From IMG/VR virus record IMGVR_UViG_3300037247_000437, positions 1,297 to 65,296 of that record: a stretch of 64,000 bases of DNA. One strand, 5' to 3'. This DNA comes from a virus (lineage: Duplodnaviria; Caudoviricetes). Each line of letters opens with the position of its first letter. Positions within the stretch are counted from its first letter, which is position 1. A program made the translations under genes and the position numbers. Positions 10,142-62,761 of this stretch are shown here, in pieces. The notes beneath the pieces were generated by a model. That model worked only from the letters and a program-made list of their open reading frames with translations, made no database searches and had not been told where the DNA came from.

Positions 10142-10342
10142 ACAATGAATAAGTTAGCATATATCCTCCAGGAGATCAATGTAAGTGCATTTGCCCGGTC
10201 AATAGGAATGAATGAAAGCCTATTAAGGAAATACACAAATGGTATTGCCACACCATCCGAGAAGCAGTTAAAAAGGATTGAATCAGCTATTCGGGAACTA
10301 GGCAAAAGATTAAAGATAGTAAAATTGTATAATATCAAGTGA
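10139..10342 (+). CDS. HTH DNA-binding protein resembling the C-terminal domain of Bacteroidota HicB-like antitoxins
   Basis: INVSAFARSIGMNESLLRKYTNG...PSEKQLKRIESAIRELG. Confidence 0.7.
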   Translation: MTMNKLAYILQEINVSAFARSIGMNESLLRKYTNGIATPSEKQLKRIESAIRELGKRLKIVKLYNIK

Positions 10343-10397
10343 CAGGCTGGTGAAAAGCAGCGTTTGACCTTGAGGCATTGTATTAATCTAAGAAATG
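10323..10397 (+). repeat. 75-bp perfect direct repeat, copy 2
   Basis: Identical to 10067-10141; supplies the stop of the HTH gene and the ATG of the next ORF. Confidence 0.97.
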
Positions 10398-18828: not shown

Positions 18829-18903
18829 AGCCATACAACAAAGCAAGCCCTTTTAATCGAGAGATTTTTTTATTTAATAATTAGGAATTAACAAATTATT
18901 TCT

Positions 18904-18911
18904 ATATTTGC
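18904..18911 (+). promoter_or_regulatory. -7 promoter box of the structural operon
   Basis: TATATTTG 47 nt upstream of the portal start. Confidence 0.55.
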
Positions 18912-18958
18912 ATAAATAAGAATGTAAAAGACTACATCTAATTTTTGTATTGTGAAAG

Positions 18959-20662
18959 TTGAGCAAGCATTTCATAAAGCGAGGGTTTAATAAGTCCGAA
19001 ATACAAAAAGCAGCAACGCAAGAGGCTCAACTAAGCTATTTTACAGAATCACAACTACAAGAAGATAGATTAGATAATACATACTTACAAGAGTGGGCGG
19101 AACGGAAATATCAAACAAACGATTATTTTTTAAACTGGGTCAAATTAATTTTTAAAGCCGAAAACTCCTTAACATTTGCCCGATACCTTAGATTTCCACT
19201 TCCTTCAGCAAAATTAATACACAACAACATAGAGCCGCAACTAAGGCGTGTTTTCAATGCTGAGGATTCTGACTTTAAATATGATGTAATAGGAAAAGAA
19301 TTATCAGACTTTAAAGATGATCTTCAAATAAAGAAATTCAACGAGGATATATTTAACCAAACTCTTTATCGCCATAATTCAATATTAATTGAGGATCTCG
19401 ATCCTGTTATCCAGAATATGCCGAAGCGTTTTTTTGTTGATATTAAAGACGTTTTATCAATAATACCTTCTGAATCAGGAATTGAGAAAATAGCCTTTAA
19501 GGCATCAATATTCAGAGGCGAAAAATTAATAGACGGGTCTCTATTTATTGATAATAAAATATATGCATTCTTCGATGAGGATCATAATCTTGTAGGCGAA
19601 GAAATACCACATGATTTAGGGCGGACGCCTGCAAATTTTATTTCCCCAGGAAAGTTCAAGGGCAGCTCAATTGTGCGAGAATCAATATACACATATGTTC
19701 GCCCCGACCTAGAGGAATATGTATTCCTGAAAACAATACAGCGAATGACCGAGCCAAACGGGCCTATTCCTACAATATCTAGGATTGATACCGACGCCGA
19801 CGCCGACGCCAGCGACGATAAAAAAGGATCGGAATTAGAGCCAAGCTCTGACTTTATGATGGGGTCGCAACAGGCTCAAGTGCATAGTCAAAACGAAGGA
19901 AAGGGGACTGGGGATCTTCAGCCAGGAACAATTCACCTAATAAACCCACAAGACATAAGAAATAACGACGGGCTTATTAATATGGATGTAGTGACCAATT
20001 GGATTGCTTTTCACCATATGCCAATTGAGCCGCTAGATTATCTTTCTACGCGGATTAAGGAAATTGAAAAGTCAATTAAATCAACGATAATAGGCGATGT
20101 TGTTGAGGGTGACGAAGAAAGCAAAAATAAATTCCAAATTGAAAAGTCACTATCGGTATTGAATAATGTACTTACATCACTTGCGGAATCATTTAACAGA
20201 ATAAGAACAAAAAGCGACACTAATATGTTAGGGCTAAAATATGGCCCTGATAAAGTAAATGAAGTATTCATCCATTACGGAACAGACTTCTTCCTAGAAA
20301 GCCAGACGCAGCTTTTTGAAGACTTACAAAGTGCGCCAAATACTTTAGAGCGCAAAAATATCATAGTCAGAATAAATCAAAATCGACACAAGAATAATAT
20401 AGATCAGTCATTTAGAAATAAAATACTATATGATTTAATCCCTTATTGCTCAGATAAGGATTTTGAGATAGCAAGAGATACCCAGTCTGTGACGGATGTA
20501 AATTTACCATATCAGCTTCAGTTTAATTATTGGATAGGCCTATTCGAGGAAAGACATGGTAATATTGTAATATTCTGGAAGGAATCGGATGGGACTAATG
20601 AGCAAAAATTAGAAGCGATAAATAAATTAATCATTTTAATTATAAAAGAAAATGTCACTTAA
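18959..20662 (+). CDS. Portal protein
   Basis: 567 aa; first gene of the structural block; HDLGRTPA and IHYGTDF motifs; call mainly by position and size. Confidence 0.75.
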   Translation: MSKHFIKRGFNKSEIQKAATQEAQLSYFTESQLQEDRLDNTYLQEWAERKYQTNDYFLNWVKLIFKAENSLTFARYLRFPLPSAKLIHNNIEPQLRRVFNAEDSDFKYDVIGKELSDFKDDLQIKKFNEDIFNQTLYRHNSILIEDLDPVIQNMPKRFFVDIKDVLSIIPSESGIEKIAFKASIFRGEKLIDGSLFIDNKIYAFFDEDHNLVGEEIPHDLGRTPANFISPGKFKGSSIVRESIYTYVRPDLEEYVFLKTIQRMTEPNGPIPTISRIDTDADADASDDKKGSELEPSSDFMMGSQQAQVHSQNEGKGTGDLQPGTIHLINPQDIRNNDGLINMDVVTNWIAFHHMPIEPLDYLSTRIKEIEKSIKSTIIGDVVEGDEESKNKFQIEKSLSVLNNVLTSLAESFNRIRTKSDTNMLGLKYGPDKVNEVFIHYGTDFFLESQTQLFEDLQSAPNTLERKNIIVRINQNRHKNNIDQSFRNKILYDLIPYCSDKDFEIARDTQSVTDVNLPYQLQFNYWIGLFEERHGNIVIFWKESDGTNEQKLEAINKLIILIIKENVT

Positions 20663-31002: not shown

Positions 31003-33956
31003 CAACGAATAAAGATTGGATATTTGTATTAGATTCACTTTTCCTGGGAAAGGCAAAGTTAAAAAACGATCCTGAAGGATGGGAGAATCAGCGCGTTTCA
31101 ATTTCTAGGAGTCCTTCGAAGTTCGGTCTATTCAGAAAGTTTAAATCAACACTCAGATTTATTGGCGATGGGTACAATTATGTAAGGAATGTCTATGAGA
31201 TCAAAGGCACTGAGCATGAGGTTAAAATCGAAATCTTCGAATACAATGCTACAAAAGACCAGTACTTCCTATACTTTTCAGGCATAATTGATCTAAGCAC
31301 ATACGTAACCGATGAAGATATCTTTGCCGATGTCGTAATTAGCGATACAACATTTGCCAGGAAAATAAAAAGCCGTGAGAATGTAAAAGTCAATTTAAGC
31401 CGAACTAAATCAATCGGAGGATTAGAACTTCCAGAAAATAATCAAGTAACAGTACAATTGCATCAGCGCGAATTATTGAGCGTTGGAGAATTTACTTTAA
31501 ATGAAGCGGATGCAACGGTTGAAAGTTTTCACGTGATTGATGATGGCGTTGGTTGGGATGGATTTACCTTACCAATTGCCCTTATTGGTGAAGATAATAA
31601 TGTTACAAATCTATCGAGCCAAACAAATCCAATAATCAGTACATCGGGAGCATTATTCTGGGATGCCGCCGGTGAAGATTCAATAGTTACGCTTACCGGA
31701 ACTGTCACAGGGATTTTAAAAGATGCTTTTGTTTCAGTTTCCGGTGGGAATAATGTTGAGTTTCTATTCAGAATTTATACTGATGACACGCGAACCGTTA
31801 TAGGTTTCGATTCTCCTATAAGCGGATCTCAGGTTTTCATTCCTGAAGGATCAACAGGCGTAAACTTTTCATTTTTAATTGATACGAAACTTGGCGGAGT
31901 ACCTCCTGCACCAAATATTGGCCCTGATGCTGTAATTTCATTGATTTGTGTAGGAACTGATAGCACACAATTCAGAGGTTTTGAATGTGAATTTACAGGC
32001 ATACAGTTTACGGTAGCTCAAAACCTTCAATTTAAAGACGGCACCCCTGCGCAAGGATATTTGATGTTTGAGGCATTTCAGCGAGTAATTCAGGTTATCA
32101 CAGATAAAGAATTTTCGTTTAAATCAGATTACTTGGATCGTATAGATAGGGGGGCAGTAGCAAACGGTCCAGGAGCTTTTGAAACGCTTCATTCATCTTT
32201 ACAGATTCGACAAATTCCAAGTACAAATCCGTCGATTTCATTAAATGACTTATTCAACTCCCTGAATGCTCAGAATAATTTAGGGTTTGGAATTGAATTT
32301 GATGAGGTAGGACAGCCATTTGCCCGACTAGAAAAAAAGGCACATTTCTTTTCCGGCGAAGTAATACTTACAATTCATTCAGTAAGTAAGATTGAAAAGG
32401 TAGTAGCAAGAGATTTTATTTACTCAAAGATAAAAGTAGGATATGACAAATCCGCAACGGAGGAAGATAATGGACTTGAAGAGTACAATAATAAATTTGA
32501 ATTTGATACGATAATAAACACTTTCGAAAATGAACTTGATTTAGTTTCTAAAATCCGGTGGGATGGATACGGAATTGAAAAGATGAGGCGGTTATCATTT
32601 GCCACAAATCCAACTGAAGACACCAAAGAGGATAATGATACATTTGGAGTGGTTGTATTGGAAGATGGGGTAGATGGAAATGGAAAGAAAAAATATAGAA
32701 GCGCGAAGGACGAGGCTTACGACATAGTTGAAGGGATATTTTCGCCTGAAACTGCGTATAACCTCGATCATACACCGGGGCGAATGCTGAGAGCTAGTGG
32801 AGGGTTGGCAAGACCAGGACTTGAAAAGTATTTAGATGATGAGATATCCTTTGGATTTGCTGAACAAAACGAAGATTTAAGAAGCCAGAAAACCGGAGAA
32901 TCTTTAATTATAGAAAATGCAAACATCGATGTAAAAACATTAGATACAGGGTTATGGATTCCTGAAATGTACAGTTTCAAATCTGCATTAACCCGGGATC
33001 AATTCATTATTCTAACAAGAAAATCAAATGGTATTGTAAAAGTCAGCACTACAAGCGAAGAAAATACAACGGAGTATAATTATGGATGGCTAGTCGATGT
33101 TGATCAGGAAAGCGACCAGCAAGAAGCTGAGTGGAAATTATTACGAGTTAATAAAGCAAGTCCTGAAGTTAATTTAATTGACCCAGAAGGAAACACGCCG
33201 AATGTACCAATTCCTCCTGTTGATCCTTCGCCAATATTTGGTGTGTTTGACGGATCATTCCCGTTTGTGTTTGTTGGTGAAGATGATCCCGAAACGTTTA
33301 ATCAGATACTTGAAACAGGTGATGATATGCTGCTAGAGACGGGCGATAATCTACTATTAGAAGAAGATGGACTTCCGGACCCCGTAATGCTATTTGATGG
33401 CACCAGATATGGTTTAATGGGATATCACTCAGAGTTTGAGGTTCAAAATTTTGAATACGAATGGGAAGGGACAGACGAAACGGGAGTTGGTAGGAAATTT
33501 GGGATCAATATCTGTGAACAATTGAATCCTAGCGGACATCAATTGTATGATGATGCGACTTACAAGTATCATCATAGTGTAACAACTTTTCAGAATATAA
33601 TAAGTAGCGAAGCTCCTTATGCATTAGATGTCAATCATTATATAAAGATACGTAAATTTGGAACAACATTTGAATTTACAGTTGACACAGTAACGGATAA
33701 TTTAACATTAAGTGAAACTATCACATTTGATAATACGATTGCTGAAACATTGCTTGGGGCAAGATGGTTAGGGGGCGCACCATCAAATTTATTCACAGGC
33801 AAAATGAAATATTGTAAATTCAAAGAGCTTAATGTTAGCGGAGATTTCGTAAGCGATCTTATTGATATTCAAGCGGCAAATGATACCGGCTTAGGAGTCC
33901 CAAATACGGCAGCAAACGCGCCGACTAATTCAGACTTAGAGTGGTTCAATACTTAA
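30999..33956 (+). CDS. Large tail tip/baseplate protein with appended C-terminal LamG-like domain
   Basis: Follows the tape measure gene; Pro-rich linker, then a domain ending LLGARW...FTGKM; TTG start. Confidence 0.65.
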   Translation: MTTNKDWIFVLDSLFLGKAKLKNDPEGWENQRVSISRSPSKFGLFRKFKSTLRFIGDGYNYVRNVYEIKGTEHEVKIEIFEYNATKDQYFLYFSGIIDLSTYVTDEDIFADVVISDTTFARKIKSRENVKVNLSRTKSIGGLELPENNQVTVQLHQRELLSVGEFTLNEADATVESFHVIDDGVGWDGFTLPIALIGEDNNVTNLSSQTNPIISTSGALFWDAAGEDSIVTLTGTVTGILKDAFVSVSGGNNVEFLFRIYTDDTRTVIGFDSPISGSQVFIPEGSTGVNFSFLIDTKLGGVPPAPNIGPDAVISLICVGTDSTQFRGFECEFTGIQFTVAQNLQFKDGTPAQGYLMFEAFQRVIQVITDKEFSFKSDYLDRIDRGAVANGPGAFETLHSSLQIRQIPSTNPSISLNDLFNSLNAQNNLGFGIEFDEVGQPFARLEKKAHFFSGEVILTIHSVSKIEKVVARDFIYSKIKVGYDKSATEEDNGLEEYNNKFEFDTIINTFENELDLVSKIRWDGYGIEKMRRLSFATNPTEDTKEDNDTFGVVVLEDGVDGNGKKKYRSAKDEAYDIVEGIFSPETAYNLDHTPGRMLRASGGLARPGLEKYLDDEISFGFAEQNEDLRSQKTGESLIIENANIDVKTLDTGLWIPEMYSFKSALTRDQFIILTRKSNGIVKVSTTSEENTTEYNYGWLVDVDQESDQQEAEWKLLRVNKASPEVNLIDPEGNTPNVPIPPVDPSPIFGVFDGSFPFVFVGEDDPETFNQILETGDDMLLETGDNLLLEEDGLPDPVMLFDGTRYGLMGYHSEFEVQNFEYEWEGTDETGVGRKFGINICEQLNPSGHQLYDDATYKYHHSVTTFQNIISSEAPYALDVNHYIKIRKFGTTFEFTVDTVTDNLTLSETITFDNTIAETLLGARWLGGAPSNLFTGKMKYCKFKELNVSGDFVSDLIDIQAANDTGLGVPNTAANAPTNSDLEWFNT

Positions 33957-41212: not shown

Positions 41213-41631
41213 TGAGACAAATTTTAATTACCAGGATAAGACAAGACGACGACATTCAAACGTTAGGTCATTTGACAGTCTATGATGGGCTTAAAAAGAT
41301 TTTCGAGTGCAGTACATTAGAATTGCCATGGAAGGGTAACAAGACAGATGTAAGCTGCATTCCAGACGCTCATTACTGGGTTGATAAATATCTTTCACCA
41401 ACCAAAGGCCGGGGAATAGTATTTCAATTCAGCAATGTAAAAGGCAGATCAAACGTTCAGATTCATGTAGGTAATTTTAATCGAGACGTCTTAGGATGTG
41501 TACTTGTTGGCCAGGGATTCACCGACCTTGACAAAGACGGATACTTGGATGTATACTCAAGCGGTCGCACCATGGACAAACTTCTAGAGATAATGCCGGA
41601 TAAATTCAAACTTACAATAAACTGGTTATGA
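41212..41631 (+). CDS. DUF5675-family putative endolysin
   Basis: TLELPWKGN....SCIP, GRSNVQIHVGN....LGCVLVG. Confidence 0.8.
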   Translation: MRQILITRIRQDDDIQTLGHLTVYDGLKKIFECSTLELPWKGNKTDVSCIPDAHYWVDKYLSPTKGRGIVFQFSNVKGRSNVQIHVGNFNRDVLGCVLVGQGFTDLDKDGYLDVYSSGRTMDKLLEIMPDKFKLTINWL

Positions 41632-42050
41632 ATATCCTAAGTAAAATATTCTCAAGTGGTGCTAATGAAATAATAGGCACAGTGGGCGGTATAATAGACG
41701 ACCTGAGTACTTCTAAGGAAGAGAAGGCAGAACTAAAGAAAAGGCTATTCGATGCCATAAGCTCAAAGCTATTGGATCTTGCAGAAATGGGAAAACAAGT
41801 AATCATTGCAGAGTCAAGCGGCAATTGGCTGCAAAGATCATGGAGGCCAATTATAATGCTTTCATTTGGATTTATAATAATGTACTATTATTTTATTGCG
41901 CCTGTGTTTTCTACGCCAGGAATAGAGTTGCCTGATGAATTCTGGGCATTACTTAAAATTGGTTTAGGCGGTTACGTAGTTGGCAGATCGGTGGAAAAAG
42001 TTGCAAAGGAATTTTCCAAAAATCCAGATATGTTAAAAAGAAAAAAGTAA
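41628..42050 (+). CDS. 3TM holin (GTA holin-like)
   Basis: IIAESSGNWLQRSWRP, LLKIGLGGYVVGRSVEK. Confidence 0.85.
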   Translation: MNILSKIFSSGANEIIGTVGGIIDDLSTSKEEKAELKKRLFDAISSKLLDLAEMGKQVIIAESSGNWLQRSWRPIIMLSFGFIIMYYYFIAPVFSTPGIELPDEFWALLKIGLGGYVVGRSVEKVAKEFSKNPDMLKRKK

Positions 42051-42106
42051 TTTTGTTTATATGTATGTGATTGAAAGGGACGCTTTGGAACGGGGCGTCT
42101 TTTTTT
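42048..42106 (+). ncRNA. Mini transcription unit 1 (putative sRNA)
   Basis: TAATTTTG box (42048-55), short U/G-rich tract, hairpin GGGACGCTTT/GGGGCGTCTT plus T-run. Confidence 0.5.
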
Positions 42107-42122
42107 ATGTCCAATAATTCAC

Positions 42123-42191
42123 TACATTTGATTCTCATGGTTAGTTGGTTTAAATTGTTTGTGAGCGGTGCTGTATGGTGCCGCTTTTTTT
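42123..42191 (+). ncRNA. Mini transcription unit 2 (putative antisense sRNA)
   Basis: TACATTTG box; tract whose reverse complement is CACAAACAATTTAAACCAACTAACC-ATG-AGA; terminator AGCGGTGC/GTGCCGCT plus T-run. Confidence 0.6.
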
Positions 42192-42207
42192 ATTCTCTAT
42201 AATTAAT

Positions 42208-42313
42208 TAACTTCACGCTGACGGGCACTTCCGATTTTGGTCAACAAGATCGACGCATCGCGGAATACAGGAGGCCGGAGAACTCGATTATCAAGGATGG
42301 TCGAGTTTTTTTT
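42208..42313 (+). ncRNA. Mini transcription unit 3 (structured sRNA candidate)
   Basis: Variant box TAACTTCA; hairpin CGATTTTG/CAAGATCG, with TTCCG/CGGAA as an overlapping outer helix; terminator AACTCGATTA/TGGTCGAGTT plus T-run. Confidence 0.5.
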
Positions 42314-42403
42314 ATGCCAAATCGAAAATAAAAGTAAAACAATTACTATTTAATTAGTTTGCTAGTATGTAATTTACTACATTTGGTTAATCAAAAGGGA
42401 ATT

Positions 42404-42853
42404 ATGAAAAATCAAATCACAGAGATCGAACGAAATTTATCAGAAGGTTACACTTTAGTAAGTTCAACTGAACATAAAAGCAGCCAGTACTTTTACATAG
42501 CACGTCCGGACGGTTTAGAACTTAAGGCCAGAATAAGCGATCACGAAACAATGACAGGAAGATCTGCAAGTCATGTGAATATTTTAAGTGACAGATTTTT
42601 ACATATAGATTTTGATTTCGAAATGCAATATGATGCTGATGATTATGAAATCGAATTAACCAAAGAAGAGGCTGCGAAGCAAATATCAGAATATTACGGT
42701 GTTGAAGTAGATGAAAATAGCATTGAAGAATGTTCAGATTCAGATTTTCAACTTGATAATATGGAACTTGATTGGAAAGTTGGGGAGGCTATTTTAGGCA
42801 AGCATATAGCAGAATGCATAATGAATGTAACGAACGTGTGTTATACTTACTAA
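42404..42853 (+). CDS. Hypothetical acidic protein
   Basis: ORF behind a TACATTTG box (42378-85); contains a RISDH motif. Confidence 0.65.
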   Translation: MKNQITEIERNLSEGYTLVSSTEHKSSQYFYIARPDGLELKARISDHETMTGRSASHVNILSDRFLHIDFDFEMQYDADDYEIELTKEEAAKQISEYYGVEVDENSIEECSDSDFQLDNMELDWKVGEAILGKHIAECIMNVTNVCYTY

Positions 42854-42872
42854 TTCAAAAAAAATAATTAAA

Positions 42873-43982
42873 ATGAAAATAGCTCTGATAGATGGTGATT
42901 TATTAGGATTAGGCAACCATAGATTTCCTAATTTGGCACTCATGAAAATATCATCATTTAGGAAAGTAATGGGTGATAACGTAACGTTAATTTTAGATTA
43001 TAAGGAGTTAACCGGGGGGTTATTTGTTAAAAAATACGATAAAATATTTATATCAAAAGCCTTTACGTGGAGTTATGTTCCTGAAGAAATCACATCAATG
43101 AGTAATGTTGTAACAGGCGGGACTGGTTTTTTTTATGACAAAGCTATACCATTGAGTTATGAGATAGAGCATTCAATGCCAGACTATTCATTATATGATG
43201 AATTTGTTAGGGTAAAAGAGTTAGCGCGTAATAAAAAAACGTCGTTAAAACATTATAAGGAATATTCAGTAGGATATTCAACAAGGGGCTGTTTTCGGGG
43301 ATGTGGGTTTTGTGTTTTAAAAAATGAACGAAAGGTTAACCTTCATTCATCCTTATTTGAATTCACAGACCCAACTAGAAAAAAAATAGCGATGCTTGAT
43401 GATAATATATTGGGGTGTGCAAAATATCCTCAAATATTTGAGCAAATAAAAGATACTGGAAAGGCATTCAAGTACACACAGGCTATGGACATACGCCTAA
43501 TGACTGATAAAAAAACAAAGATTATACTCCCCCTGAGATACGATGGTGATTATTTCTTTGCCTTCGACCTGTGGGATCATAAAGAAAAAGTAGAAAAAGG
43601 TTTAAAATTATGGAGTGAAAGCTATTATAAGATAAAAAATTCAAAGGCTAAAAGTATTCATACACAGTTATATTGCATTTGCGCTTATGATGATGACAAT
43701 AAATATGACTTAAATTTCTTTATCAATGACATTATAATTCTATTCAATAGGATTGAAATAATATTTAAGTACAAAGCAAACCCGTATGTAATGTGTTTTG
43801 AAAAATGGAAAGAGTCTCCTTTCCCGTATCTATACACAGCATTAAGGCAGTGGAGCCTACGCCCAGCTAATTGTAAGAAATATAGTTTCAATGAATATAT
43901 TGAAGTATCAGGTAAAACAAAAGCAATGCTTCTTAGAGATAAATATCCTGAATTTAGAAAATTATGGGACGTAAAATTATAA
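42873..43982 (+). CDS. Radical SAM protein
   Basis: FPNLALMKIS N-terminus; TRGCFRGCGFC (CxxxCxxC); LDDNIL. Confidence 0.9.
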   Translation: MKIALIDGDLLGLGNHRFPNLALMKISSFRKVMGDNVTLILDYKELTGGLFVKKYDKIFISKAFTWSYVPEEITSMSNVVTGGTGFFYDKAIPLSYEIEHSMPDYSLYDEFVRVKELARNKKTSLKHYKEYSVGYSTRGCFRGCGFCVLKNERKVNLHSSLFEFTDPTRKKIAMLDDNILGCAKYPQIFEQIKDTGKAFKYTQAMDIRLMTDKKTKIILPLRYDGDYFFAFDLWDHKEKVEKGLKLWSESYYKIKNSKAKSIHTQLYCICAYDDDNKYDLNFFINDIIILFNRIEIIFKYKANPYVMCFEKWKESPFPYLYTALRQWSLRPANCKKYSFNEYIEVSGKTKAMLLRDKYPEFRKLWDVKL

Positions 43983-43992
43983 ACAATTAATC

Positions 43993-44181
43993 ATGATAGA
44001 ACTTATAGTACACCGTATCAAGATCATTTACGGAACAGAGGCGAAGTTTTGCGAGACGCAAAACCACGGAGATCCTTCCAACTTTCCAAAGCTCAAAAAG
44101 ACAGTGATTAATAAAACCGATTGGCTCAATAGGTTTTTAGATCCATTGGGATTAAAAGTTGAGATTACAGATAAAAAGTAG
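43993..44181 (+). CDS. Small putative DNA-binding (Cro-like) protein
   Basis: YGTEAKFCET...LNRFLDPLGLKVEI. Confidence 0.45.
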   Translation: MIELIVHRIKIIYGTEAKFCETQNHGDPSNFPKLKKTVINKTDWLNRFLDPLGLKVEITDKK

Positions 44182-44267
44182 TAGATTTGCATTTCATATT
44201 CATAATTTCGTGTTGATTTGATAGTTTAGATTGAAAAAAAAGCGCGCCGCTCGGTTCGCTTTTTTTT
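44182..44267 (+). ncRNA. Mini transcription unit 4 (putative antisense sRNA)
   Basis: TAGATTTG box; reverse complement CAATCTAAACTATCAAATCAACACGAAATT-ATG-AAT-ATG-AAA; A8-GCG..CGC-T8 terminator. Confidence 0.6.
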
Positions 44268-44283
44268 ATTTGGAATAATTCGC

Positions 44284-44359
44284 TACATTTGATTTGATTC
44301 GCGATTTGTTATATGGTAATGAGATCAATAAAAAAGCCTCTGTAGGATGAGGCTTTTTT
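44284..44359 (+). ncRNA. Mini transcription unit 5 (putative sRNA)
   Basis: TACATTTG box in the same 21-nt context as unit 2; U/G-rich tract; AAAAAAGCCTC/GAGGCTTTTTT terminator. Confidence 0.55.
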
Positions 44360-44360
44360 A

Positions 44361-44515
44361 TTTGCATAATTGAATTGTATTTTGTACCTTCATATTTCAT
44401 TTAGAAACTATACAGTTTAAACTAAATCAAAAGGTCATGTAAACTAAATGCATTTTATGTTAATCAATCGGGATTCCCGGTAAATCTAAAGCCTTGATTA
44501 TTCAGGGCTTTTTTT
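44361..44515 (+). ncRNA. Mini transcription unit 6 (structured sRNA candidate)
   Basis: TTTG-N20-TACCTTCA; ATTTAG/CTAAAT and AAACT/AGTTT stems; AAAGCCTTGA/TCAGGGCTTT terminator plus T-run. Confidence 0.45.
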
Positions 44516-44631
44516 ATTGGATCATACATATATTTTTTACGCCATCCGGAAACACCCTGAAAAATTTCAATATAAATGGATAAACTTGATTAAACATTAG
44601 GATAATCAAAAATAACCTATTATATTTGTTT

Positions 44632-46478: not shown

Positions 46479-46615
46479 TTTGTATTGTCAATATTATTTC
46501 ATATCTTTGTAATGGATTCAATAGTATGATAAAATTAAGTTACGATATTAACGTACATAAGACTTTATTGAATCCTGTTCTGGGTAAGCGAAAGCGGCAC
46601 CAGACAGGATTTTTT
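46479..46615 (+). promoter_or_regulatory. Promoter plus attenuator-like leader, copy 1
   Basis: TTTG-N19-TATCTTTG; GGATTCAATAG/TTATTGAATCC antiterminator overlapping the AATCCTGT.CTGG/CCAGACAGGATT terminator; CGTACATAAGACTTT. Confidence 0.6.
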
Positions 46616-48011: not shown

Positions 48012-49929
48012 TTGACAGTATAATATAAACTAAATAAATTATGAGTGAAGAGAATTCCTGGGATAACCTGAAAGACCTGACTAAGCAGGAGATAATTGAT
48101 TTTTTGAAAACACAATTTCATTATAGGCTACCTTCAAAAAGAGAAGTAAAGTCATTTAAGTGGTCAAAGGATGCTGCTAAACTGCAAATAGAAATGGATG
48201 ATCATTTATCAAATCCGGTTGACCCTGACTTAATAAAAAAAAGGGATGAATACGCAAGATCATTCAATGCATCAAAAGACACGTCTGAGAGGGTTAGATT
48301 ACTGGATAAGATTAATCCAATAGATGATCTTATATCAAGAAATCACGAGAAATACAAAGCCATCGCACGGAAGCAGCAAAAGAATGATAAATATTATAAT
48401 TCGTTTAATCAATAATTCAATTTAAACTAAAGAATGCTTCTATTAACCTTGTTGAGTTTAAAGTAAAATAAACAGTAAAAATATAAAACTAAACTAAATT
48501 ATGAATATCTACGAATTTATTACACCAAGCGATCCGATTACATTCAAAACAAATGATGACAAAATTGCATTTATATGTGCTCTTTTCTTAGGCAATGGCA
48601 AGGCAGGATGTAAACGATTTGATGATTCTGGTAATGAAATATCAATTCCTACAATGTTAATGTTTTCAAAAGATCCTGATTCAGAAATAAAGAATTACAT
48701 AGGCGGTAATGCATCAGAGTATTTTGATTCAAAAAAGCACTTAATAAAAGCTGCATTTGAAAGCTTTTCATATGGAAATATAGAGGATAGGCGCTCATAT
48801 GACGATGCTATTATTGCTATTACTGATACTAATAAATTGAAAAACTTTAAAGCAAAGCATGAAGATAGAAATAGGAGTTCACTGAGTAAGTGGGTAAAAT
48901 CTGCATGGAAATTAGCTGAAGGCATTAATTAAATCTAAACTAAAGAAATTATGAATATCAGTGTATTAGAAAAAATATTAACATCAACCAGCGAATATTG
49001 GATTTTGAGAAAGGAAAATAAAGATAATTATAGCAAAGAACTTAGAGCGTACATTATAATGGTCGCGATCCCTACTAAAATTCAAGTCGATAAAGACCGG
49101 AAATTAATTACTTTGTGTGATCTTGAAGAATTAGAGGCTGTGAGTCTTGACGGAAATGTTTACCTAAATGAATCATATGCACCATTCCAGCTAGGGGTAA
49201 ATTTACATCACGTCACAGAAGTATTCCCTATCCCATCTCGGCAAAGGGAATTCATGATAAAAGCTCTTGAGTTAAAAAGTCATGATATTTATGATTACAA
49301 AAAATTGATTGATGAAGTATGTATCGATCAAGAAGAGAAATAATTGACAGTATAATCTAAACTAAACAAATTATGAAAACTCAAATTGAAAAAGCATATT
49401 ATTGGGTTAAATTTTACAATCACGACAAAAAACTAATTATGCTATTCAATGGCAAAAACTTTGAAGGTTTTAAAAGCGATCAATTCATAGGTGATGAGAT
49501 TGAAAGCTATAAAATAATTAATTCAATCTAAACTAAAGACAATGACTATAGAAGAAGAGGCTAAAGATATTTTAGATTGCATATCAGTTTTTGACCCTGA
49601 TGAAACATTGAAAAACAAGGGCAGATATTTTGATGTGATCCAAAATGATGTAAAAAAGCTATTGAAAAGAATCAAAGAAACTAAATAGTGATTTAAACTA
49701 AACTAAGTTATGAGATACAGAATTAAAATTACAACATTCAAAAACAAGCGTAAAGAATTCAGGGCACAAAAGAAAGTATTATTTGGATGGGCTGACCTTG
49801 ACTATTGCGGGGTAGTTTATCATTCAATTACTTGTCGTACGGATACAAGGACGGAGGCGTTAAATAGAATTTATTTACACTATGAAGGGAACACAGCGGA
49901 GCACACCATAGAATTTGAGTACATTACTA

Positions 49930-49986
49930 CATAGTGATTGTTGGGTTGTTAGTTGAAAACGGTTGCCAGCTGGCGCCGTTTTTTTT
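49930..49986 (+). ncRNA. Antisense-like tract plus terminator closing the cassette array
   Basis: CATAGTGATTGTTGGGTTGTTAGTTG (reverse complement CAACTAACAACCCAACAATCACT-ATG), then the AAAACGG..CCGTTTT hairpin plus T-run. Confidence 0.45.
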
Positions 49987-50002: not shown

Positions 50003-50076
50003 TTGCAATTATTTGTAAGTTTATCGGTATAAAGTTTGCAATTAATTGTAAGATGATTATATTTGTGTATGTCAAA
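50003..50076 (+). promoter_or_regulatory. Promoter with tandem near-palindromic operators and a leaderless start
   Basis: TTGCAATTATTTGTAAG (50003) and TTGCAATTAATTGTAAGAT (50036, identical at 52036), then TATATTTG-tgt-ATG. Confidence 0.65.
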
Positions 50077-52035: not shown

Positions 52036-52054
52036 TTGCAATTAATTGTAAGAT
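52036..52054 (+). promoter_or_regulatory. Operator-like palindrome (second site)
   Basis: TTGCAATTAATTGTAAGAT, identical to 50036-50054. Confidence 0.6.
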
Positions 52055-52346: not shown

Positions 52347-53984
52347 AAAAACTAAGATTATGAAAAAGGAAGAACTGAAACATATTCATGAAGATTTAAA
52401 AAACGTGATATGCCCGCAGTGTAAGAAAGATTTTAAGCTTACGTGGAATGATTACAGTGACACACCTCAGACACTAATAATGAGAGGGTGCCCTAGTGGC
52501 GGAATTTATGATGTATCAATCAAGTGTCCACATTGTGATTACGAAGAGGAATTATGAAAATAGAAAGTAAATTTAGAAATCCAGACATGATTTTAGCCTG
52601 TCAAGAAATGATAAAAATGGCTAATAATTTCTTTGAGTATGTTGGAGTTTACCATGATACACAGTATAGACCTACTTTATTTAATGTCATTAAAACAGAT
52701 GAAAGGAGTTTTGATGTAACCGTAAGATTCAGGGCATCGGTAGCAGATTACAAATTTTCCATAAATATTGACTTGGATAACGAAGATGAAACATATAATT
52801 CGTTTGGAGAAAAATACTTTCCTGAAACTGAAGAATAATCATGAAAAATACAATTTGGTCAATGAAAATGAAGAACGCTCACCGGATGGCCAGGGTTATT
52901 TCAGGCATCAATTACAATTCATACCGCGAAAACCTTTCTATTGCAATGAAGGTACAGCATATGATTTTACGGCAGATTACCCTGACAGATGTTAACTGGC
53001 TTGTAAATTGTTTAGGTGGAAAATTTGTCAACCTTCATTTACAGCACTTGAAGAAAACAGCACTTTTCGAAATTACCGGCGGAGTAAGCGAAATTGATGT
53101 ATATCATTACGTCAGGCCACGAACAGGTGCAGAGGATAATAAGGCCATCGGCGTAATGATAGAATCAGAAATAAAATCAAATATCAAACTAAACTTAGAT
53201 TGAAATGAAAAAGGAACTAATAAGAACTGAAATAATGAACCTTACTGGGGAGCAATGGGAAATAATAGAGGGGATAAAAAAATGCGGCCTTATCGAAGTC
53301 TCCACTTCAGAATTGTATAACTTAATTGGTTTTACTGGCGGAATGTTTTTTGGTGGGAAAGCAAATGAACGCGAGTTTAAGTTTATCAAAGAATTTTATA
53401 ATTACGGAAGGGGCATGCGTAAAAGTATTGAATCATGATGGATCTATTCGAGCAATTATCAGAATCTTTAAACCCTACCAATAACGCCGAACTAATAAGG
53501 ACTGCAGAGATCGAAGTGGAGATAAAGAAAATTCAAAACGAAAATTAACTATGAGGCATATATTTGAAGGCAACAGAAGTGGTAAATCATTTTCTCAAAT
53601 GATACAACTAAAGCAAAATATAGAAATGGGGGTTACTTGCGGAGTTGCTACCTCAAATCCAGAAAAGGTAAAGCAAGATTTTGAATATATGACTGGATCG
53701 AAATTGATTCTTACATCAACAAAGGGCAGTGATATACTATTTGACGCCTCACTTGCCCCACGGGCAGAAATAGAAGCGGAGATAAGGCATATTAAATCTG
53801 AAGAATAAAATATTATATAATAGAATGACTACCCAGGATATTCCAATATGGATAATCACAATAGCATTAGCCTATTATATTTACAGACAATTACCAAAAC
53901 CAAAACCCGAATAAACCAAGTAAATAGTACTAGTAATTTAGCAATTAATTGAGTATATTTATTATATAATAAACAAAAATAATC

Positions 53985-55323: not shown

Positions 55324-55837
55324 GATATTACATAACATAAAATAATCATGGCAAATACAGTTAATGGAATTCGAGAGCAAATTTCACAAAGAATCAGGAG
55401 TACACAGGTGAGGGGGTTTGAACATAAACCAGCTCCTAAACTAGTTCAGGAGGGTTTTAACATCCTCAATTATATGCAGGGCAAAGTAGGATATTTCGAT
55501 ACAATCAAGGCGGTTCAGCGAACATTGAGGGATTTAAGCTAATGAATCATTTACACATTAACTTTTCAAACATCGAATTTTCATGCCCTTATTGCGGCAA
55601 GCAATACGAAGATTCAAACGATAAATACCTGGACCGATGTAACCGGAACAAATCAAACTGCACGACGATAAAATGTGAATGCGGAGAAAAGTTTGGGATG
55701 ACATATGATATTCAGGGGGACGCGGTAGGGTTTAAAATACTTACAAATAATACACATATTGGTTTGATACGACCAATTAATTGATTAATTTTAGATTATA
55801 GTTTACGCGGTATCGGACGCGATTAAGAAACTTATTA

Positions 55838-59167: not shown

Positions 59168-59272
59168 TCCGGTGTAGCTCAATTGGTAGAGCACGAGGAA
59201 GCCAGGTTTCGACACCTGTACTATGGCTGGTCCATTCTGCGGTATACGGGTTCGATTCCCGTCGCTGGATCA
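59168..59272 (+). tRNA. tRNA-like RNA with a non-canonical, expanded anticodon arm (no assignable anticodon)
   Basis: Acceptor TCCGGTG/CGCTGGA, TA, D-arm GCTC-AATTGGTA-GAGC, T-arm ACGGG-TTCGATT-CCCGT; 53 nt between D and T arms instead of about 23. Confidence 0.75.
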
Positions 59273-60091: not shown

Positions 60092-60225
60092 TTTGAATTG
60101 ATTAGATAATTTAGTAATATTGTAATGCTTTAAAGATAATGAATTTACAATACAGAAATACCGTATATAAGACTTTCTTTAAAGCCGTGCCACTGGATCA
60201 CTCCGGGGCCGGCTTTCATTTTTTA
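60092..60225 (+). promoter_or_regulatory. Promoter plus attenuator-like leader, copy 2
   Basis: TTTG-N19-TAATATTG; GCTTTAAAGA/TCTTTAAAGC antiterminator overlapping the AAAGCCG/CGGCTTT terminator; CGTATATAAGACTTT. Confidence 0.6.
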
Positions 60226-60883: not shown

Positions 60884-61566
60884 ATCAGGCATACCAACAC
60901 CTCAAAGAAGGAACCGAACATTATAATTTCATTAAAGAAAATATTGTATCATTAATTAATCGATGGAATGCGGTACATACAAAATCTCAATCAATCCCTG
61001 ATGCCGTAATAAAAGAATTCAAAAGCGTAATATACTACAATCATAATATTACAATTGACGATATAAAACCGGCAATTGATCGCGGCATGATGGGTCAATT
61101 TGGAGAAAATTACATCCTGGATGCTCAGACATTTTATAGATGGTTTACCGGATTAATGAAGCAAAAAGTAAACGAGCGTATTAAAGGCGCTGAAGCTTAC
61201 AAAGTATCAAATGTACCTGATATAACAGAAGAACAAAAACAAGCCAACAGGCAAGCCACAAGAACGGAACTGATAGAAGTATTCATGAAGTATTATAATT
61301 TCTACATGGAACACGGCGAAGTTGACGGAAACATAAAGAGATACTATGTAGTATTTTGGGATTGGTTCAGAAAACTTGGATTAATTGATATTTCAGAAGA
61401 TGAAGAAAGCAGAATGAACGAAGTTGAGGCAAAACACCTCCGGGATCTTAGATCAAAATTAAGTACGCCGGAATTAAGTCAATCGAAATACAAAAAGTTC
61501 ATTGAGATATTCAAAAGTTTGGAAGGATTAGGAATTGAAGATCAATTAAAAGCAATTAAACTATAA
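60880..61566 (+). CDS. Replication-associated hypothetical protein
   Basis: Coupled to the initiator gene; GQFGENY.LD..TFYRW. Confidence 0.5.
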   Translation: MNQAYQHLKEGTEHYNFIKENIVSLINRWNAVHTKSQSIPDAVIKEFKSVIYYNHNITIDDIKPAIDRGMMGQFGENYILDAQTFYRWFTGLMKQKVNERIKGAEAYKVSNVPDITEEQKQANRQATRTELIEVFMKYYNFYMEHGEVDGNIKRYYVVFWDWFRKLGLIDISEDEESRMNEVEAKHLRDLRSKLSTPELSQSKYKKFIEIFKSLEGLGIEDQLKAIKL

Positions 61567-61582
61567 ATAAACACTGAAAATT

Positions 61583-62761
61583 ATGGAATTAATAAAGACA
61601 AAAAACGGAAATATTATTAAAGTATACGCTAAGACTATTGAGGATACAGCGATGCGACAAATCAAAGAACTTGGTGAATTTGATCCTTATAAAGATTCCA
61701 AGATTAGAATTATGCCTGATTGCCACGCGGGGGCAGGGTGTACAATTGGCACAACAATGGAGATTAAAGATAAAATTACGCCTAATTTAGTTGGAGTTGA
61801 TATTGGTTGTGGGATGCTTACTGTGATGTTGGCTGATGATGAAATTGATTTACAGAAACTAGATGCTATTATTAATAAATATATACCTAACGGTTTCAAT
61901 ATCCACACTAAGCAAAAGGCAGAATTTGAATTTGATAAACTTTTTGCAAAAACCTTGAATATAGACCGTGCAAAATTATCACTTGGTTCTTTAGGCGGTG
62001 GAAATCATTTTATTGAAGTTGGAAAAAACTCAAAAGGTGAATTATTTTTAGTCATCCATTCGGGATCTCGAAACATCGGGGGACAAGTTGCGAAATATTA
62101 TCAAAACATTGCAATTGATAATTTAACCGATAACTCAAGAGAGCGCAAAGAATTGATTGAGCGATTAAAAAAAGAAGGTAGGCAAAAAGAAATTGGCAAA
62201 AAGTTGAATAAGCTTAAAAGGCCAGTAATTAATAATGATTTAGCATACCTAATTGGCGGTGATTTTGATAATTACATGCACGATATGGAATTGATGCAGA
62301 AATACGCTTCATTAAACCGAAAAACTATAGCTGAAATTATTTTAAGAAAAGCTGGATTGTGTGCTATTACTAATTTTGAGACAATACACAACTATATTGA
62401 CTTTGATAGAATGATGATGAGAAAAGGCGCTGTATCAGCTGAAGAAGGCGAGGTTTTATTAATACCGATTAATATGCGTGACGGGTCAATTATTGCAAAA
62501 GGTAAAGGGAATGCAGACTGGAATTACTCAGCACCACATGGAGCAGGGCGTTTAATGGGACGAAGGCAAGCGCATAAAAATTTAGATTTAGATACTTTTA
62601 AGGATCAAATGAAGGATATCTATTCTACTTCTGTACTTACCGAAACATTAGATGAGGCACCGGATGCCTATAAGCCAATGAATGAAATTATTGATTTAAT
62701 TGGTGATACTGTTGATATTATAGATATCATTAAGCCAATATATAATTTTAAGTCACATTAA
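61583..62761 (+). CDS. rtcB: RtcB RNA ligase
   Basis: MPDCHAG, GVDIGCG, GSLGGGNHF, HSGSR, HNY, RKGA, SAPHGAGR, DEAP.AYK. Confidence 0.96.
   Translation: MELIKTKNGNIIKVYAKTIEDTAMRQIKELGEFDPYKDSKIRIMPDCHAGAGCTIGTTMEIKDKITPNLVGVDIGCGMLTVMLADDEIDLQKLDAIINKYIPNGFNIHTKQKAEFEFDKLFAKTLNIDRAKLSLGSLGGGNHFIEVGKNSKGELFLVIHSGSRNIGGQVAKYYQNIAIDNLTDNSRERKELIERLKKEGRQKEIGKKLNKLKRPVINNDLAYLIGGDFDNYMHDMELMQKYASLNRKTIAEIILRKAGLCAITNFETIHNYIDFDRMMMRKGAVSAEEGEVLLIPINMRDGSIIAKGKGNADWNYSAPHGAGRLMGRRQAHKNLDLDTFKDQMKDIYSTSVLTETLDEAPDAYKPMNEIIDLIGDTVDIIDIIKPIYNFKSH

What the first reader, a model, noticed from the sequence alone, without database searches (positions are those of the whole stretch)
42048..44515. Tandem array of phage mini-genes for putative antisense small RNAs aimed at translation-start regions
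SEEN: six back-to-back ORF-free units (42048-42106, 42123-42191, 42208-42313, 44182-44267, 44284-44359, 44361-44515). Each has a TAnnTT(T/C)(G/A) box, a unique tract of about 15-90 nt and a GC hairpin plus T-run, with the next box about 15-25 nt later. Units 2 and 5 share AATAATTC(A/G)CTACATTTGATT (42113-33 and 44274-94), suggesting one array later split by the 42.3-44.2 kb gene module. Tracts 1, 2, 4 and 5 are U/G-rich, unlike the A-rich sense strand. Reverse complements of units 2 and 4 read as leader plus start codon: ACAAACAATTTAAACCAACTAACC-ATG-AGA and AATCTAAACTATCAAATCAACACGAAATT-ATG-AAT-ATG-AAA. KNOWLEDGE: TAnnTTTG is the Bacteroidota -7 element, and Bacteroidota initiate translation on A-rich, SD-less leaders with A at -3, as in both cases. 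INFERENCE: the phage carries an expandable arsenal of sRNAs that occlude start codons of host (for example defence) or phage mRNAs, like a guide array without repeats or Cas. I do not know of a described equivalent.
Basis: partly seen in the sequence, partly recalled or inferred. Interest (0 to 1): 0.9.

Follow-up and report, generated by a model that had tools for sequence, protein, structure and literature searches.

The report
Stacked terminator-promoter junctions, candidate small RNAs
On each side of an accessory three-gene cassette, a 65-kb marine phage stacks three transcription stop signals interleaved with host-type start signals; these should give a few tiny non-coding RNAs, one of which mirrors the phage's own gene-start sequences, but no regulatory role is shown.

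Summary
The sequence features are real. Six strong hairpin-plus-T-run terminators lie in two ORF-free stretches (42051-42403, 44182-44631). One follows the holin gene; the other follows a three-gene radical-SAM cassette. Exact TAnnTTTG boxes number 6 there, against 1.0 in shuffles (0 of 2000). Four of the six units (1, 2, 4, 5) have an exact box. Units 3 and 6 have only degenerate ones.

The repeated element is not the "unit" but the junction: terminator tail, T-run, ATAATT, box. Two copies are 81% alike over 43 nt and bracket the cassette. This resembles the PeSL terminator/promoter cassettes of T4-like phages.

The tracts between junctions are unrelated to each other. Only unit 4 is complementary beyond chance to the phage's own leader/start regions (0 of 200 shuffles). 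Unit 2 is marginal; units 1, 3, 5 and 6 show nothing. The minus-strand ORFs look non-coding.

Verdict: insulating terminator-promoter junctions that probably emit short RNAs, one a credible anti-leader RNA. A guide-like arsenal is not supported. This scan has noted promoter-to-terminator arrays in other phages before.

The parts
41628..42050 (+). 3TM holin gene, last gene of the structural/lysis block (context)
   Evidence: PF11351 at 2.9e-12 and phrog_3427 holin at 1.2e-31
42048..42106 (+). Unit 1: box TAATTTTG overlapping the holin stop codon, 28-nt U/G-rich tract, terminator T1. It is the holin mRNA's 3' end whether or not the box fires.
   Evidence: (-15.8 kcal/mol, z -4.6)
42091..42133 (+). 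Junction element C1: descending arm of T1, T7, 16 nt containing ATAATT, box TACATTTG (promoter P2)
   Evidence: the repeat finder family D2, reference copy; geometry
42123..42191 (+). Unit 2: P2 box, 32-nt U/G-rich tract with a small 5' hairpin, terminator T2. Predicted RNA about 55 nt.
   Evidence: (-16.9, z -3.8)
42176..42218 (+). Junction element C2, degenerate: T2 tail, T7, ATAATT, TAACTTCA
   Evidence: D2 copy at 60%
42192..42313 (+). Unit 3: GC-rich (54%) structured tract and terminator T3. No consensus promoter.
   Evidence: -35.4, z -3.3; top 0.4% of 80-nt windows by GC
42378..42408 (+). Promoter box TACATTTG of the same class as P2/P5, with the leader and start codon of ORF 42404. The leader/start (42389-42408) is 85% complementary to unit 4.
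   Evidence: D4, D8, I1
42404..44181 (+). Accessory cassette: 149-aa unknown protein, 369-aa radical SAM protein, 62-aa protein
   Evidence: phrog_9298 at 2.5e-41. The radical SAM gene is found alone in four otherwise unrelated phage contigs.
44159..44267 (+). Unit 4: TTG-N20-TAGATTTG directly after the cassette's stop codon, 49-nt tract (44190-44238) that is an inverted copy of the phage's leader + AUG, and A8/U8-flanked terminator T4. It is also the cassette mRNA's 3' UTR.
44252..44294 (+). Junction element C3: T4 tail, T8, ATAATT, box TACATTTG (promoter P5)
   Evidence: D2 copy, 81% to C1
44284..44359 (+). Unit 5: P5 box, 35-nt tract with a 5' hairpin, terminator T5. Predicted RNA about 64 nt.
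   Evidence: (-17.3, z -3.1)
44354..44392 (+). Junction element C4, degenerate: T6, ATTTGC, ATAATT, then TATTTTGT / TACCTTCA
44360..44515 (+). Unit 6: 128-nt tract with forward copies of the leader motif, an ATG-TAA pair and an 8-codon mini-ORF, then terminator T6. It looks like a decayed gene start.
   Evidence: sense match to the 49336 leader reached by 15 of 100 shuffles, so only suggestive
44621..44628 (+). Box TATATTTG, 3 nt before the ATG of ORF 44632 (next operon)
48916..48965 (+). Best predicted partner of unit 4: start region of ORF 48951 (-24.6 kcal/mol; 11 + 14 contiguous pairs across the AUG)
61553..61589 (+). Leader of the RtcB ligase gene: best local alignment to the reverse complement of unit 4
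   Evidence: score 38 against 30.0 +/- 2.5; 0 of 200 shuffles; RtcB identified

Best explanation
The two ORF-free stretches are stacks of composite terminator-promoter junctions. They sit at the two borders of an accessory (moron-like) radical-SAM cassette, at the point where the late structural/lysis block ends.

SHOWN FROM SEQUENCE. Each junction is a hairpin, a T-run, 16 nt containing ATAATT, and a Bacteroidota-type -7 box. The T-run therefore lies where the next promoter's -33 element should be.

INFERRED.
1. Three terminators in series stop read-through from the late operon and from the cassette.
2. The promoters re-start transcription, and the conserved junctions can serve as recombination linkers, as PeSLs do in T4-like phages.
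3. Promoters P2 and P5 are followed within 32-35 nt by another terminator. If they are active, they must give terminated RNAs of about 55-65 nt. The boxes of units 1 and 4 would likewise give about 45-75 nt.
4. Most of these RNAs are probably by-products or of unknown use.
5. Unit 4 is the exception. Whether made from its own box or as the cassette's 3' UTR, it carries a single-stranded 5' segment complementary to AAUUAUGAAUAU-type start regions and to the UAAACUA leader motif. It is therefore a credible antisense repressor of the phage's own genes: ORFs 48951, 48501, 50679, 61583 and the cassette's first gene 42404.
For: TERMINATORS AND BOXES. Six terminators. Boxes number 6 against 1.0 in shuffles, 0 of 2000.

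THE JUNCTION IS THE REPEAT. Junction copies are 81% alike over 43 nt and 60% for a third copy. The two good copies lie 2161 nt apart and bracket the cassette. T-run + ATAATT follows T1, T2, T4 and T5, and also the terminator at 18865 in front of box 18903. The same box class (CTACATTTG, 3 copies on the + strand against 0.6 expected on both strands) precedes the real gene 42404. Tracts between junctions are unrelated to each other.

THE CASSETTE IS MOBILE. The radical SAM gene occurs alone in four unrelated phage contigs.

DECAY. Unit 6 holds forward leader motifs with ATG-TAA, and units 3 and 6 have decayed boxes.

RARITY. ORF-free box-to-terminator units are rare in comparators. There were 14 in 63 loci (507 kb, both strands); 12 of these are one post-holin unit of a single phage group.

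UNIT 4. Local alignment of its reverse complement to the genome scores 38 against 30.0 +/- 2.5 (0 of 200). The mean of its five best duplexes with 127 start windows is -22.4 against -18.9 +/- 1.1 (0 of 50). It pairs better with start windows than with interior windows (p 8.5e-6). There is an inverted repeat with the 42404 start region.

HOST. A Bacteroidota host is plausible. 224 of 310 phage records matching the terminase are from Bacteroidota hosts by name. 41 of the 42 best holin loci in genomes carry Bacteroidota names.
Against: 1. In T4-like phages PeSLs flank ORFs. Here the slots after P2 and P5 hold only unique tracts of 32-35 nt with small 5' hairpins, which a dedicated RNA gene explains more naturally than an empty cassette.
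2. Only two junction copies are closely alike.
3. No recombinant or deletion form was seen (contigs of one run only, which cannot show rare forms).
4. The reversed A/T skew of tracts 1, 2, 4 and 5 is not explained by insulation.
5. Unit 2 also leans towards start regions (top-5 duplex mean reached by 2 of 50 shuffles; p 8e-4 against interior windows).
6. The best single duplex of unit 4 is matched by 4 of 50 shuffles, and its longest exact match (14 nt) by 47 of 500.
7. An inverted relic of a leader would give the same complementarity without any function.
8. Promoter activity, termination efficiency and host are all unmeasured.
9. The best terminase match carries a Rhodobacteraceae name.
Confidence: 0.45

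Rival explanations
1. Dedicated small-RNA genes. Units 2, 4 and 5, perhaps also 1, are selected trans-acting antisense RNAs. They pair with A-rich, SD-less translation-start regions of phage or host mRNAs. The junction elements merely make such genes easy to gain and lose.
For: 1. Exact -7 boxes and strong terminators enclose short ORF-free tracts.
2. Units 2 and 5 fold as a 5' hairpin plus terminator.
3. The tracts are U/G-rich, opposite to the A-rich sense strand.
4. Units 4 and 2 prefer start windows.
5. Box-to-terminator units without an ORF are rare in comparator phage loci.
6. An unrelated phage group sharing only the holin family keeps one such unit right after its holin. That unit has a conserved single-stranded motif, and 4 of its 11 terminator pairs show compensatory changes.
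7. The minus-strand ORFs that start at the mirrored ATGs score as non-coding (-0.15 and -0.21, against +0.40 for + strand ORFs).
Against: Units 1, 3, 5 and 6 have no complementarity above shuffles to any part of the phage. Units 1 and 5 pair worse with start windows than shuffles do. Units 3 and 6 lack a consensus box. Unit 2's local alignment is not significant (166 of 200 shuffles reach it). There is no evidence on conservation, expression or host targets.
Confidence: 0.25
2. Promoter-proximal terminators for timed read-through, in the manner of lambda PR'-tR' and its 6S RNA (recalled). P2 and P5 fire constitutively and stop at T2/T3 or T5/T6 until a phage antiterminator lets RNA polymerase read into the cassette or the next operon. 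The short RNAs are the off-state products.
For: 1. The geometry fits: promoter, short leader with a hairpin, then two terminators in front of each operon.
2. The same phage has other box-leader-terminator arrangements directly before genes, at 46502-46615 and about 60110-60224, and terminators just before ORFs 55894 and 58467.
3. The review PMC12197685 (its section 2) lists lambda 6S among Hfq-dependent phage sRNAs, so the two readings can coexist.
Against: Both downstream operons have their own consensus boxes after the last terminator (42378, 44621), so read-through is not needed. No antiterminator, sigma factor or NusG-like protein turned up, but only 28 of about 123 ORFs were scanned. No shared nut/put-like element is evident between units 2 and 5.
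Confidence: 0.1
3. Recombination debris. The stretches are scars of repeated cassette gain and loss: empty promoters, leftover terminators, and an inverted and a forward leader fragment. They have no present function beyond the first terminator of each stack.
For: 1. Boxes in units 3 and 6 are decayed, and there is a decayed copy of the 42379 promoter/leader at 44594 (89% over 18 nt, D13).
2. Unit 6 has leader motifs followed by ATG-TAA.
3. Unit 3 has foreign-looking GC content.
4. The region is a patchwork of short direct and inverted repeats.
Against: All six hairpins and T-runs are intact and strong. The P2/P5 box is 20 of 21 identical while the flanks differ, which suggests the junctions are maintained. 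A virulent-style 65-kb genome packed with genes seldom keeps 800 nt of junk.
Confidence: 0.12

Closest known systems
PeSLs (promoter-early stem-loops): composite terminator/promoter cassettes of T4-like phages. Arbiol et al. 2010, PMC2839356 (abstract and passages read); Comeau et al. 2014, PMC4122927 (abstract read).
   Same: A small conserved intergenic element joins a stem-loop terminator to a host-sigma promoter. It is repeated in the genome and flanks non-essential genes. It is proposed to insulate transcription and to act as a site for homologous exchange. Here two copies, 81% alike over 43 nt, bracket an accessory cassette.
   Different: The promoter is of the Bacteroidota -7 type, not sigma-70 -35/-10. 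There are few copies (5 with the T-run + ATAATT signature, 2 of them closely alike). The slots after P2 and P5 hold 32-35-nt ORF-free tracts instead of ORFans. No recombinants or mini-circles were seen or could be sought.
Phage antisense RNAs that block translation starts: P22 sar, lambda OOP and aQ, PAK_P4as15 (review PMC12197685, its section 2 read); prophage DicF (recalled)
   Same: Short (about 50-80 nt) promoter-to-terminator RNAs of phages that pair with mRNAs. sar blocks initiation of ant translation.
   Different: Those are mostly cis-antisense, transcribed opposite their target. Unit 4 would act in trans on a leader/start motif shared by several phage genes. None of the RNAs here has been observed.
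Morons of lambdoid phages (recalled; discussed in passages of PMC2839356)
   Same: An accessory gene block with its own promoter and terminator sits between core modules. Here it is box 42378, three genes and T4.
   Different: Morons are not defined by conserved flanking repeats. Here the flanks are homologous junction elements with extra terminators.
Lambda PR'-tR' 6S RNA (recalled; listed as an Hfq-dependent sRNA in PMC12197685, section 2)
   Same: A promoter is followed closely by a terminator, giving a short constitutive RNA in front of an operon.
   Different: No Q-like antiterminator was found. The downstream operons have their own promoters.
Abundant intergenic non-coding transcripts of the Bacteroidota phage phi14:2 of Cellulophaga (bioRxiv 10.1101/2020.03.07.982082, two passages read)
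   Same: It is a precedent that a phage of a Bacteroidota host transcribes ORF-free intergenic regions at high level.
   Different: Those are long non-coding RNAs in the early region of a crAss-like phage. No sequence or architectural relation was tested.

Membership tests
PeSL-type terminator/promoter cassettes | One conserved intergenic element combining a stem-loop terminator and a host-sigma promoter | tested here: met
   Hairpin, T-run, 16 nt with ATAATT, then TAnnTTTG at C1 and C3. C2 and C4 are degenerate. A further copy lies at 18865-18910.
PeSL-type terminator/promoter cassettes | Many copies with sequence conservation over roughly 100 bp | tested here: inconclusive
   Five sites share the T-run + ATAATT signature. 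Only two are 81% alike, over 43 nt.
PeSL-type terminator/promoter cassettes | Copies flank non-essential or ORFan genes | tested here: inconclusive
   C1 and C3 bracket the radical-SAM cassette, and that gene occurs alone in unrelated phages. However, the slots C1-C2 and C3-C4 hold no ORF.
PeSL-type terminator/promoter cassettes | Indels between related phages, or mini-circles, map to the elements | not testable with these tools
No joints appear in the contigs of run X1.
Phage-encoded regulatory small RNA genes | Own promoter | tested here: inconclusive
   Units 1, 2, 4 and 5 have an exact -7 box. Unit 4 also has TTG 20 nt upstream, and units 2 and 5 have a T-run at the -33 place. Units 3 and 6 have degenerate boxes. 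Activity was not measured.
Phage-encoded regulatory small RNA genes | Intrinsic terminator and no coding potential | tested here: met
   6 of 6 have terminators. Only 8-21-codon frames are present. Minus-strand ORFs score as non-coding.
Phage-encoded regulatory small RNA genes | A discrete transcript is observed | not testable with these tools
   Only one DNA run holds the sequence, and no RNA holder is listed.
Phage-encoded regulatory small RNA genes | Complementarity to a target beyond chance | tested here: inconclusive
   Unit 4: yes (0 of 200 and 0 of 50 shuffles). Unit 2: marginal (2 of 50; local alignment reached by 166 of 200). Units 1, 3, 5 and 6: no. Host targets were not tested.
Phage-encoded regulatory small RNA genes | Conservation or covariation in relatives | not testable with these tools
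   No relatives were reachable. A model of the post-holin unit of another phage group ranks units 2 and 4 first in the window, but at E 0.12 and 0.29.
Lambda-type promoter-proximal terminator under antitermination | The downstream operon depends on read-through, and an antiterminator is encoded | tested here: not met
   Consensus boxes at 42378 and 44621 lie after the last terminators. No antiterminator was found among the 28 ORFs scanned, out of about 123.
CRISPR-like guide array | Regular repeat-spacer periodicity and matches of spacers to targets | tested here: not met
   Junction copies are spaced 85 and 2076 nt apart. Five of six tracts match nothing above chance. No Cas-like gene turned up among the 28 ORFs scanned.
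Any Rfam family | Score at or above the gathering threshold | tested here: not met
   There are no hits in the region at gathering level. The best sub-threshold hits are 15-29 bits against thresholds of 40-80 and are driven by the terminators.

The most novel reading that the evidence does not exclude
The phage times translation of its own small-gene cassettes with short trans-acting 'anti-leader' RNAs. Unit 4 is the clear candidate and unit 2 a possible one. These RNAs would occlude the shared UAAACUA...AAUUAUG leader/start motif, which stands in for a Shine-Dalgarno site in this SD-poor (Bacteroidota-type) system. Such RNA genes would be carried between portable terminator-promoter junctions that let them be gained, lost and swapped like ORFan cassettes.
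Probability: 0.15. Interest if true: 0.75.

Novelty: new variant of a known kind. Interest (0 to 1): 0.4.

Why it matters
If the junction reading holds, PeSL-like portable terminator-promoter linkers are not peculiar to T4-like coliphages. They would also exist, with a different promoter grammar, in phages of marine Bacteroidota. That would help explain how such phages shuffle accessory genes without disturbing neighbouring operons.

If unit 4 works as an anti-leader RNA, it would be a simple way for a phage to switch off a whole class of its own genes at the level of translation initiation, in hosts that do not use Shine-Dalgarno pairing.

Either reading gives concrete, cheap reporter tests. 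As it stands the evidence is sequence-only, from a single uncultured genome.

Tried and rejected
RELATIVES. No DNA match in the phage collection. The shared box was not found in viral contigs. Holin relatives in viral, metagenome and genome collections are at most 41-54% identical and share only the holin. Radical-SAM loci share only that gene. The tail-fibre-like ORF 38018 and ORF 44632 have no relatives. The best terminase relative, OP947161.1, has 3 terminators and no stacks. A gapped pattern from unit 3 found nothing in viral contigs.

EXPRESSION. No RNA holder is listed; one DNA run holds the stretch and may be its source. Laying that run gave the identical contig and no variants inside the units.

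WHOLE-REGION DUPLICATION. The two stretches align with score 93 against 50.8 +/- 8.1. I rejected paralogy of the tracts because, once T-runs and the box are removed, corresponding tracts are no more alike than non-corresponding ones.

REAL MINUS-STRAND GENES AT THE MIRRORED ATGs. Rejected on codon statistics. There is no minus-strand box between 43146 and 44614.

PEPTIDE GENES. Unit 2's 21-codon frame has its stop after the T-run. The 10- and 8-codon frames of units 5 and 6 are unconvincing.

tRNA OR KNOWN RNA FAMILIES. None.

MEMBERSHIP OF THE POST-HOLIN UNIT OF THE L001 GROUP. Model R1 gives E 0.12 and 0.29, which is not significant.

THE U/G-RICH TRACT AT 49935-49960. No significant antisense match.

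HOST-TARGET SEARCH. Not done. The host is unknown, and shuffled control patterns may not be typed.

LITERATURE. My searches turned up no description of such junctions or anti-leader RNAs in Bacteroidota phages. That is only as far as those four searches reach. Supplements were not seen.

Full report
SETTING. The window is bases 1297-65296 of a single 65,296-bp contig whose first and last 127 bases are identical, which suggests a complete, circularly assembled phage genome. All substantial ORFs are on the + strand: 117 ORFs of 60 aa or more (17,873 codons) against 22 (1,846 codons) on the minus strand. Terminase (15016), structural and tail genes run to a DUF5675 gene and a 3TM holin at 41628-42050. 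After the first ORF-free stretch come three genes: a 149-aa unknown protein, a 369-aa radical SAM protein (phrog_9298, 2.5e-41) and a 62-aa protein. A second ORF-free stretch follows, and then many small genes. A Bacteroidota host is likely but not proven. 224 of the 310 phage records matching the terminase are from Bacteroidota hosts by name, although the best match (58.5%) carries a Rhodobacteraceae name. 41 of the 42 best holin loci in prokaryote genomes carry Bacteroidota names (the placement of those names is my own knowledge).

My RNAfold scan for hairpins abutting T-runs gave 22 hits on the + strand of the window, and six of them are the six unit ends. A stricter scan gave 11 on the + strand and 5 on the minus strand. 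Folding each unit gives terminal hairpins with total energies of -15.8 to -35.4 kcal/mol and z-scores of -2.0 to -4.6. The simple consensus tool flagged only T2 and T6 on the + strand, and T4 on the minus strand. It counted 15 terminator-like sites in 38-48 kb against 5.1 +/- 2.3 in shuffles. Exact TAnnTTTG boxes number six in the two stretches (42048, 42123, 42378, 44182, 44284, 44621) against 1.01 +/- 0.99 in dinucleotide shuffles; none of 2000 shuffles reaches six. Units 3 and 6 have only TAACTTCA and TACCTTCA. Tracts 1, 2, 4 and 5 have reversed A/T skew (-0.18 to -0.48 against +0.13 for the other intergenic DNA). No tRNA or Rfam family is present.

WHAT IS REPEATED IS THE JUNCTION, NOT THE UNIT. 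The 21-nt box shared by units 2 and 5 is part of a 43-nt repeat. It starts in the descending arm of the preceding terminator and runs through the T-run to the -7 box. The copies at 42091-42133 and 44252-44294 are 81% alike, and a third copy at 42176-42218 is 60% alike. The signature 'T-run, up to 10 nt, ATAATT' follows T1, T2, T4 and T5, and also the terminator at 18865 in front of box 18903. Its only other occurrence is inside an ORF at 7206. The distance from T-run to box is 16 nt in three copies. The T-run therefore lies where a -33 element would be (inference; the spacing rule for Bacteroidota promoters is recalled). The same box class (CTACATTTG, three + strand copies against 0.6 expected on both strands) sits 18 nt before the start codon of the real gene 42404. 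So P2 and P5 are probably working promoters. The two good junction copies lie 2161 nt apart and bracket the accessory cassette, and the radical SAM gene turns up alone in four otherwise unrelated phage contigs. This is the architecture described for PeSLs, the composite terminator/promoter cassettes that flank ORFans in T4-like phages and mediate their shuffling (PMC2839356, abstract and passages; PMC4122927, abstract).

THE TRACTS. A local alignment of the two whole stretches looked significant (93 against 50.8 +/- 8.1). When T-runs and the box are left out, however, corresponding tracts are no more alike than non-corresponding ones: u1/u4 z 2.4, u2/u5 z -0.4, u3/u6 z -0.6, and the control u1/u5 z 3.0.

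UNITS 3 AND 6. Unit 3 is GC-rich (54%, in the top 0.4% of 80-nt windows) and structured. Unit 6 contains forward copies of the phage's leader motif, followed by ATG-TAA and by an 8-codon frame. Its similarity to the leader at 49336 is only suggestive (15 of 100 shuffles).

ANTISENSE TEST AGAINST THE PHAGE ITSELF. This phage has a recurrent leader, T(A/C)TAAACTA(A/T). It occurs six times on the + strand and once on the minus strand, and the minus-strand copy is in unit 4.
- Longest exact antisense matches are unremarkable for five tracts and weak for unit 4 (14 nt; 47 of 500 shuffles).
- Gapped local alignment of the reverse complement to the genome is significant only for unit 4. It scores 38 against 30.0 +/- 2.5 (0 of 200), and the best partner is the leader of the RtcB gene. 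For the others, the number of shuffles reaching the observed score was: u2 166 of 200, u5 81 of 200, u1 196 of 200, u3 37 of 100, u6 22 of 100.
- RNAduplex against 127 start windows (-35..+15). Unit 4's best duplex is -24.6 with ORF 48951 (4 of 50 shuffles as good), and its top-five mean is -22.4 against -18.9 +/- 1.1 (0 of 50). Unit 2's best is -21.9 with ORF 49710 (10 of 50), and its top-five mean is reached by 2 of 50. Units 5 and 1 do worse than their shuffles.
- Units 4 and 2 pair better with start windows than with 219 interior windows (p 8.5e-6 and 8e-4). Units 5 and 1 do not.
- Unit 4 is also 85% complementary over 20 nt to the leader and start codon of ORF 42404, the first gene of the cassette whose 3' end it forms (I1; -18.5 kcal/mol).
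- In the fold of unit 4, the segment complementary to GAAAUUAUGAAUAU is unpaired.

An inverted relic of a leader would give the same numbers, so function is inferred, not shown.

The ATGs in the mirrored sequences open minus-strand ORFs of 61 and 54 codons. Their codon log-odds are -0.15 and -0.21. That is like other antisense frames (mean -0.22) and unlike + strand ORFs (mean 0.40, 5th percentile 0.22). The 62-aa + strand ORF they overlap has the codon-position composition of real genes.

COMPARATIVE EVIDENCE IS THE WEAK POINT. No reachable sequence shares more than one gene with this phage. As a base rate, ORF-free box-to-terminator units are rare in 63 comparator loci (507 kb, both strands). 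There were 14, and 12 of them are one unit of a single phage group, seen several times. That group shares only the holin family with this phage. It keeps one such unit directly after its holin: box, variable hairpin, an invariant CATTTTGGGGAAAATGT stretch in five of eight distinct sequences, and a terminator in which 4 of 11 pairs show compensatory changes. A covariance model of that unit ranks units 2 and 4 first in the whole window, but at E 0.12 and 0.29, which is not membership.

READING. I put 0.45 on insulating, PeSL-like terminator-promoter junctions whose promoters, if active, necessarily emit short terminated RNAs, with unit 4 a credible anti-leader RNA. I put 0.25 on dedicated antisense sRNA genes, 0.10 on promoter-proximal terminators under antitermination, and 0.12 on debris. 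Against my best reading, PeSLs flank ORFs, whereas the slots after P2 and P5 hold 32-35-nt tracts with 5' hairpins. The U/G bias of the tracts is also unexplained. Against the arsenal reading, four of six tracts match nothing, and two units lack promoters. Earlier notes of this scan on the same genome gave the lead to the leader family and to unit 4's partner at 48945. I re-tested both. The scan has also reported promoter-to-terminator arrays in other phages, so the kind is not unique to this genome.

Noticed in passing
window 50039-50048, 52039-52048, 53942-53951, 55774-55783: The perfect palindrome CAATTAATTG occurs 4 times (0.49 expected; 0 of 100 shuffles reach 4). All copies are in intergenic DNA, roughly 2 kb apart. 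At 50039 it lies between a TTTG and the box at 50058. It looks like an operator for a phage repressor of early promoters.
   Followed up: partly
L001:6416-6510, L003:5903-6005, L005:6414-6515, L006:6209-6299, L032:1328-1419, L033:433-534, L035:4718-4828: A marine phage group that shares only the 3TM holin with this phage keeps an ORF-free unit directly after the holin. In six of eight distinct sequences it starts with a TA(C/T)ATTTG box. It also has a variable hairpin, an invariant CATTTTGGGGAAAATGT motif in five of eight, and a terminator in which 4 of 11 pairs show compensatory changes. It is a candidate conserved phage small RNA or 3' UTR element.
   Followed up: partly
window 59168-59270: Rfam tRNA model hit (42 bits, gathering score 29) where ARAGORN calls no tRNA. 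This is a tRNA-like element with an unusual middle, upstream of the replication and RtcB ligase genes.
   Followed up: no
window 10079-10138 and 10335-10394: The 60 nt upstream of ORFs 10139 and 10395 are identical, so a long perfect direct repeat brackets a 67-aa gene.
   Followed up: no
window 46010, 48007, 49339 and leaders between 46.0 and 49.7 kb: Small-gene cassettes are preceded by AATAATT(C/G)ACAGTATAAT...TAAACTAAA...ATG leaders. These share the AATAATTCAC start with the P2 junction, which suggests one family of portable gene-front elements.
   Followed up: partly
window 42320-42389 and 42582-42854: In the one DNA run that holds this phage, two other short contigs carry diverged copies of the promoter/leader of ORF 42404 (8 differences in 70 nt) and of its 3' part (33 differences in 273 nt). 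This gene front therefore circulates in another genome of the same sample.
   Followed up: no
window 18829-19417 and 31003-32063: Two long stretches (589 and 1061 nt) lack an ATG-started ORF of 55 codons or more, inside the structural block. The first follows a junction-type terminator/promoter at 18865-18910. They may hold genes with other start codons, or non-coding leaders.
   Followed up: no
window 42207-42293: The core of unit 3 is 54% G+C in a 34% genome (top 0.4% of 80-nt windows) and folds well (z -3.3). No match was found in Rfam or, with a gapped pattern, in viral contigs.
   Followed up: partly
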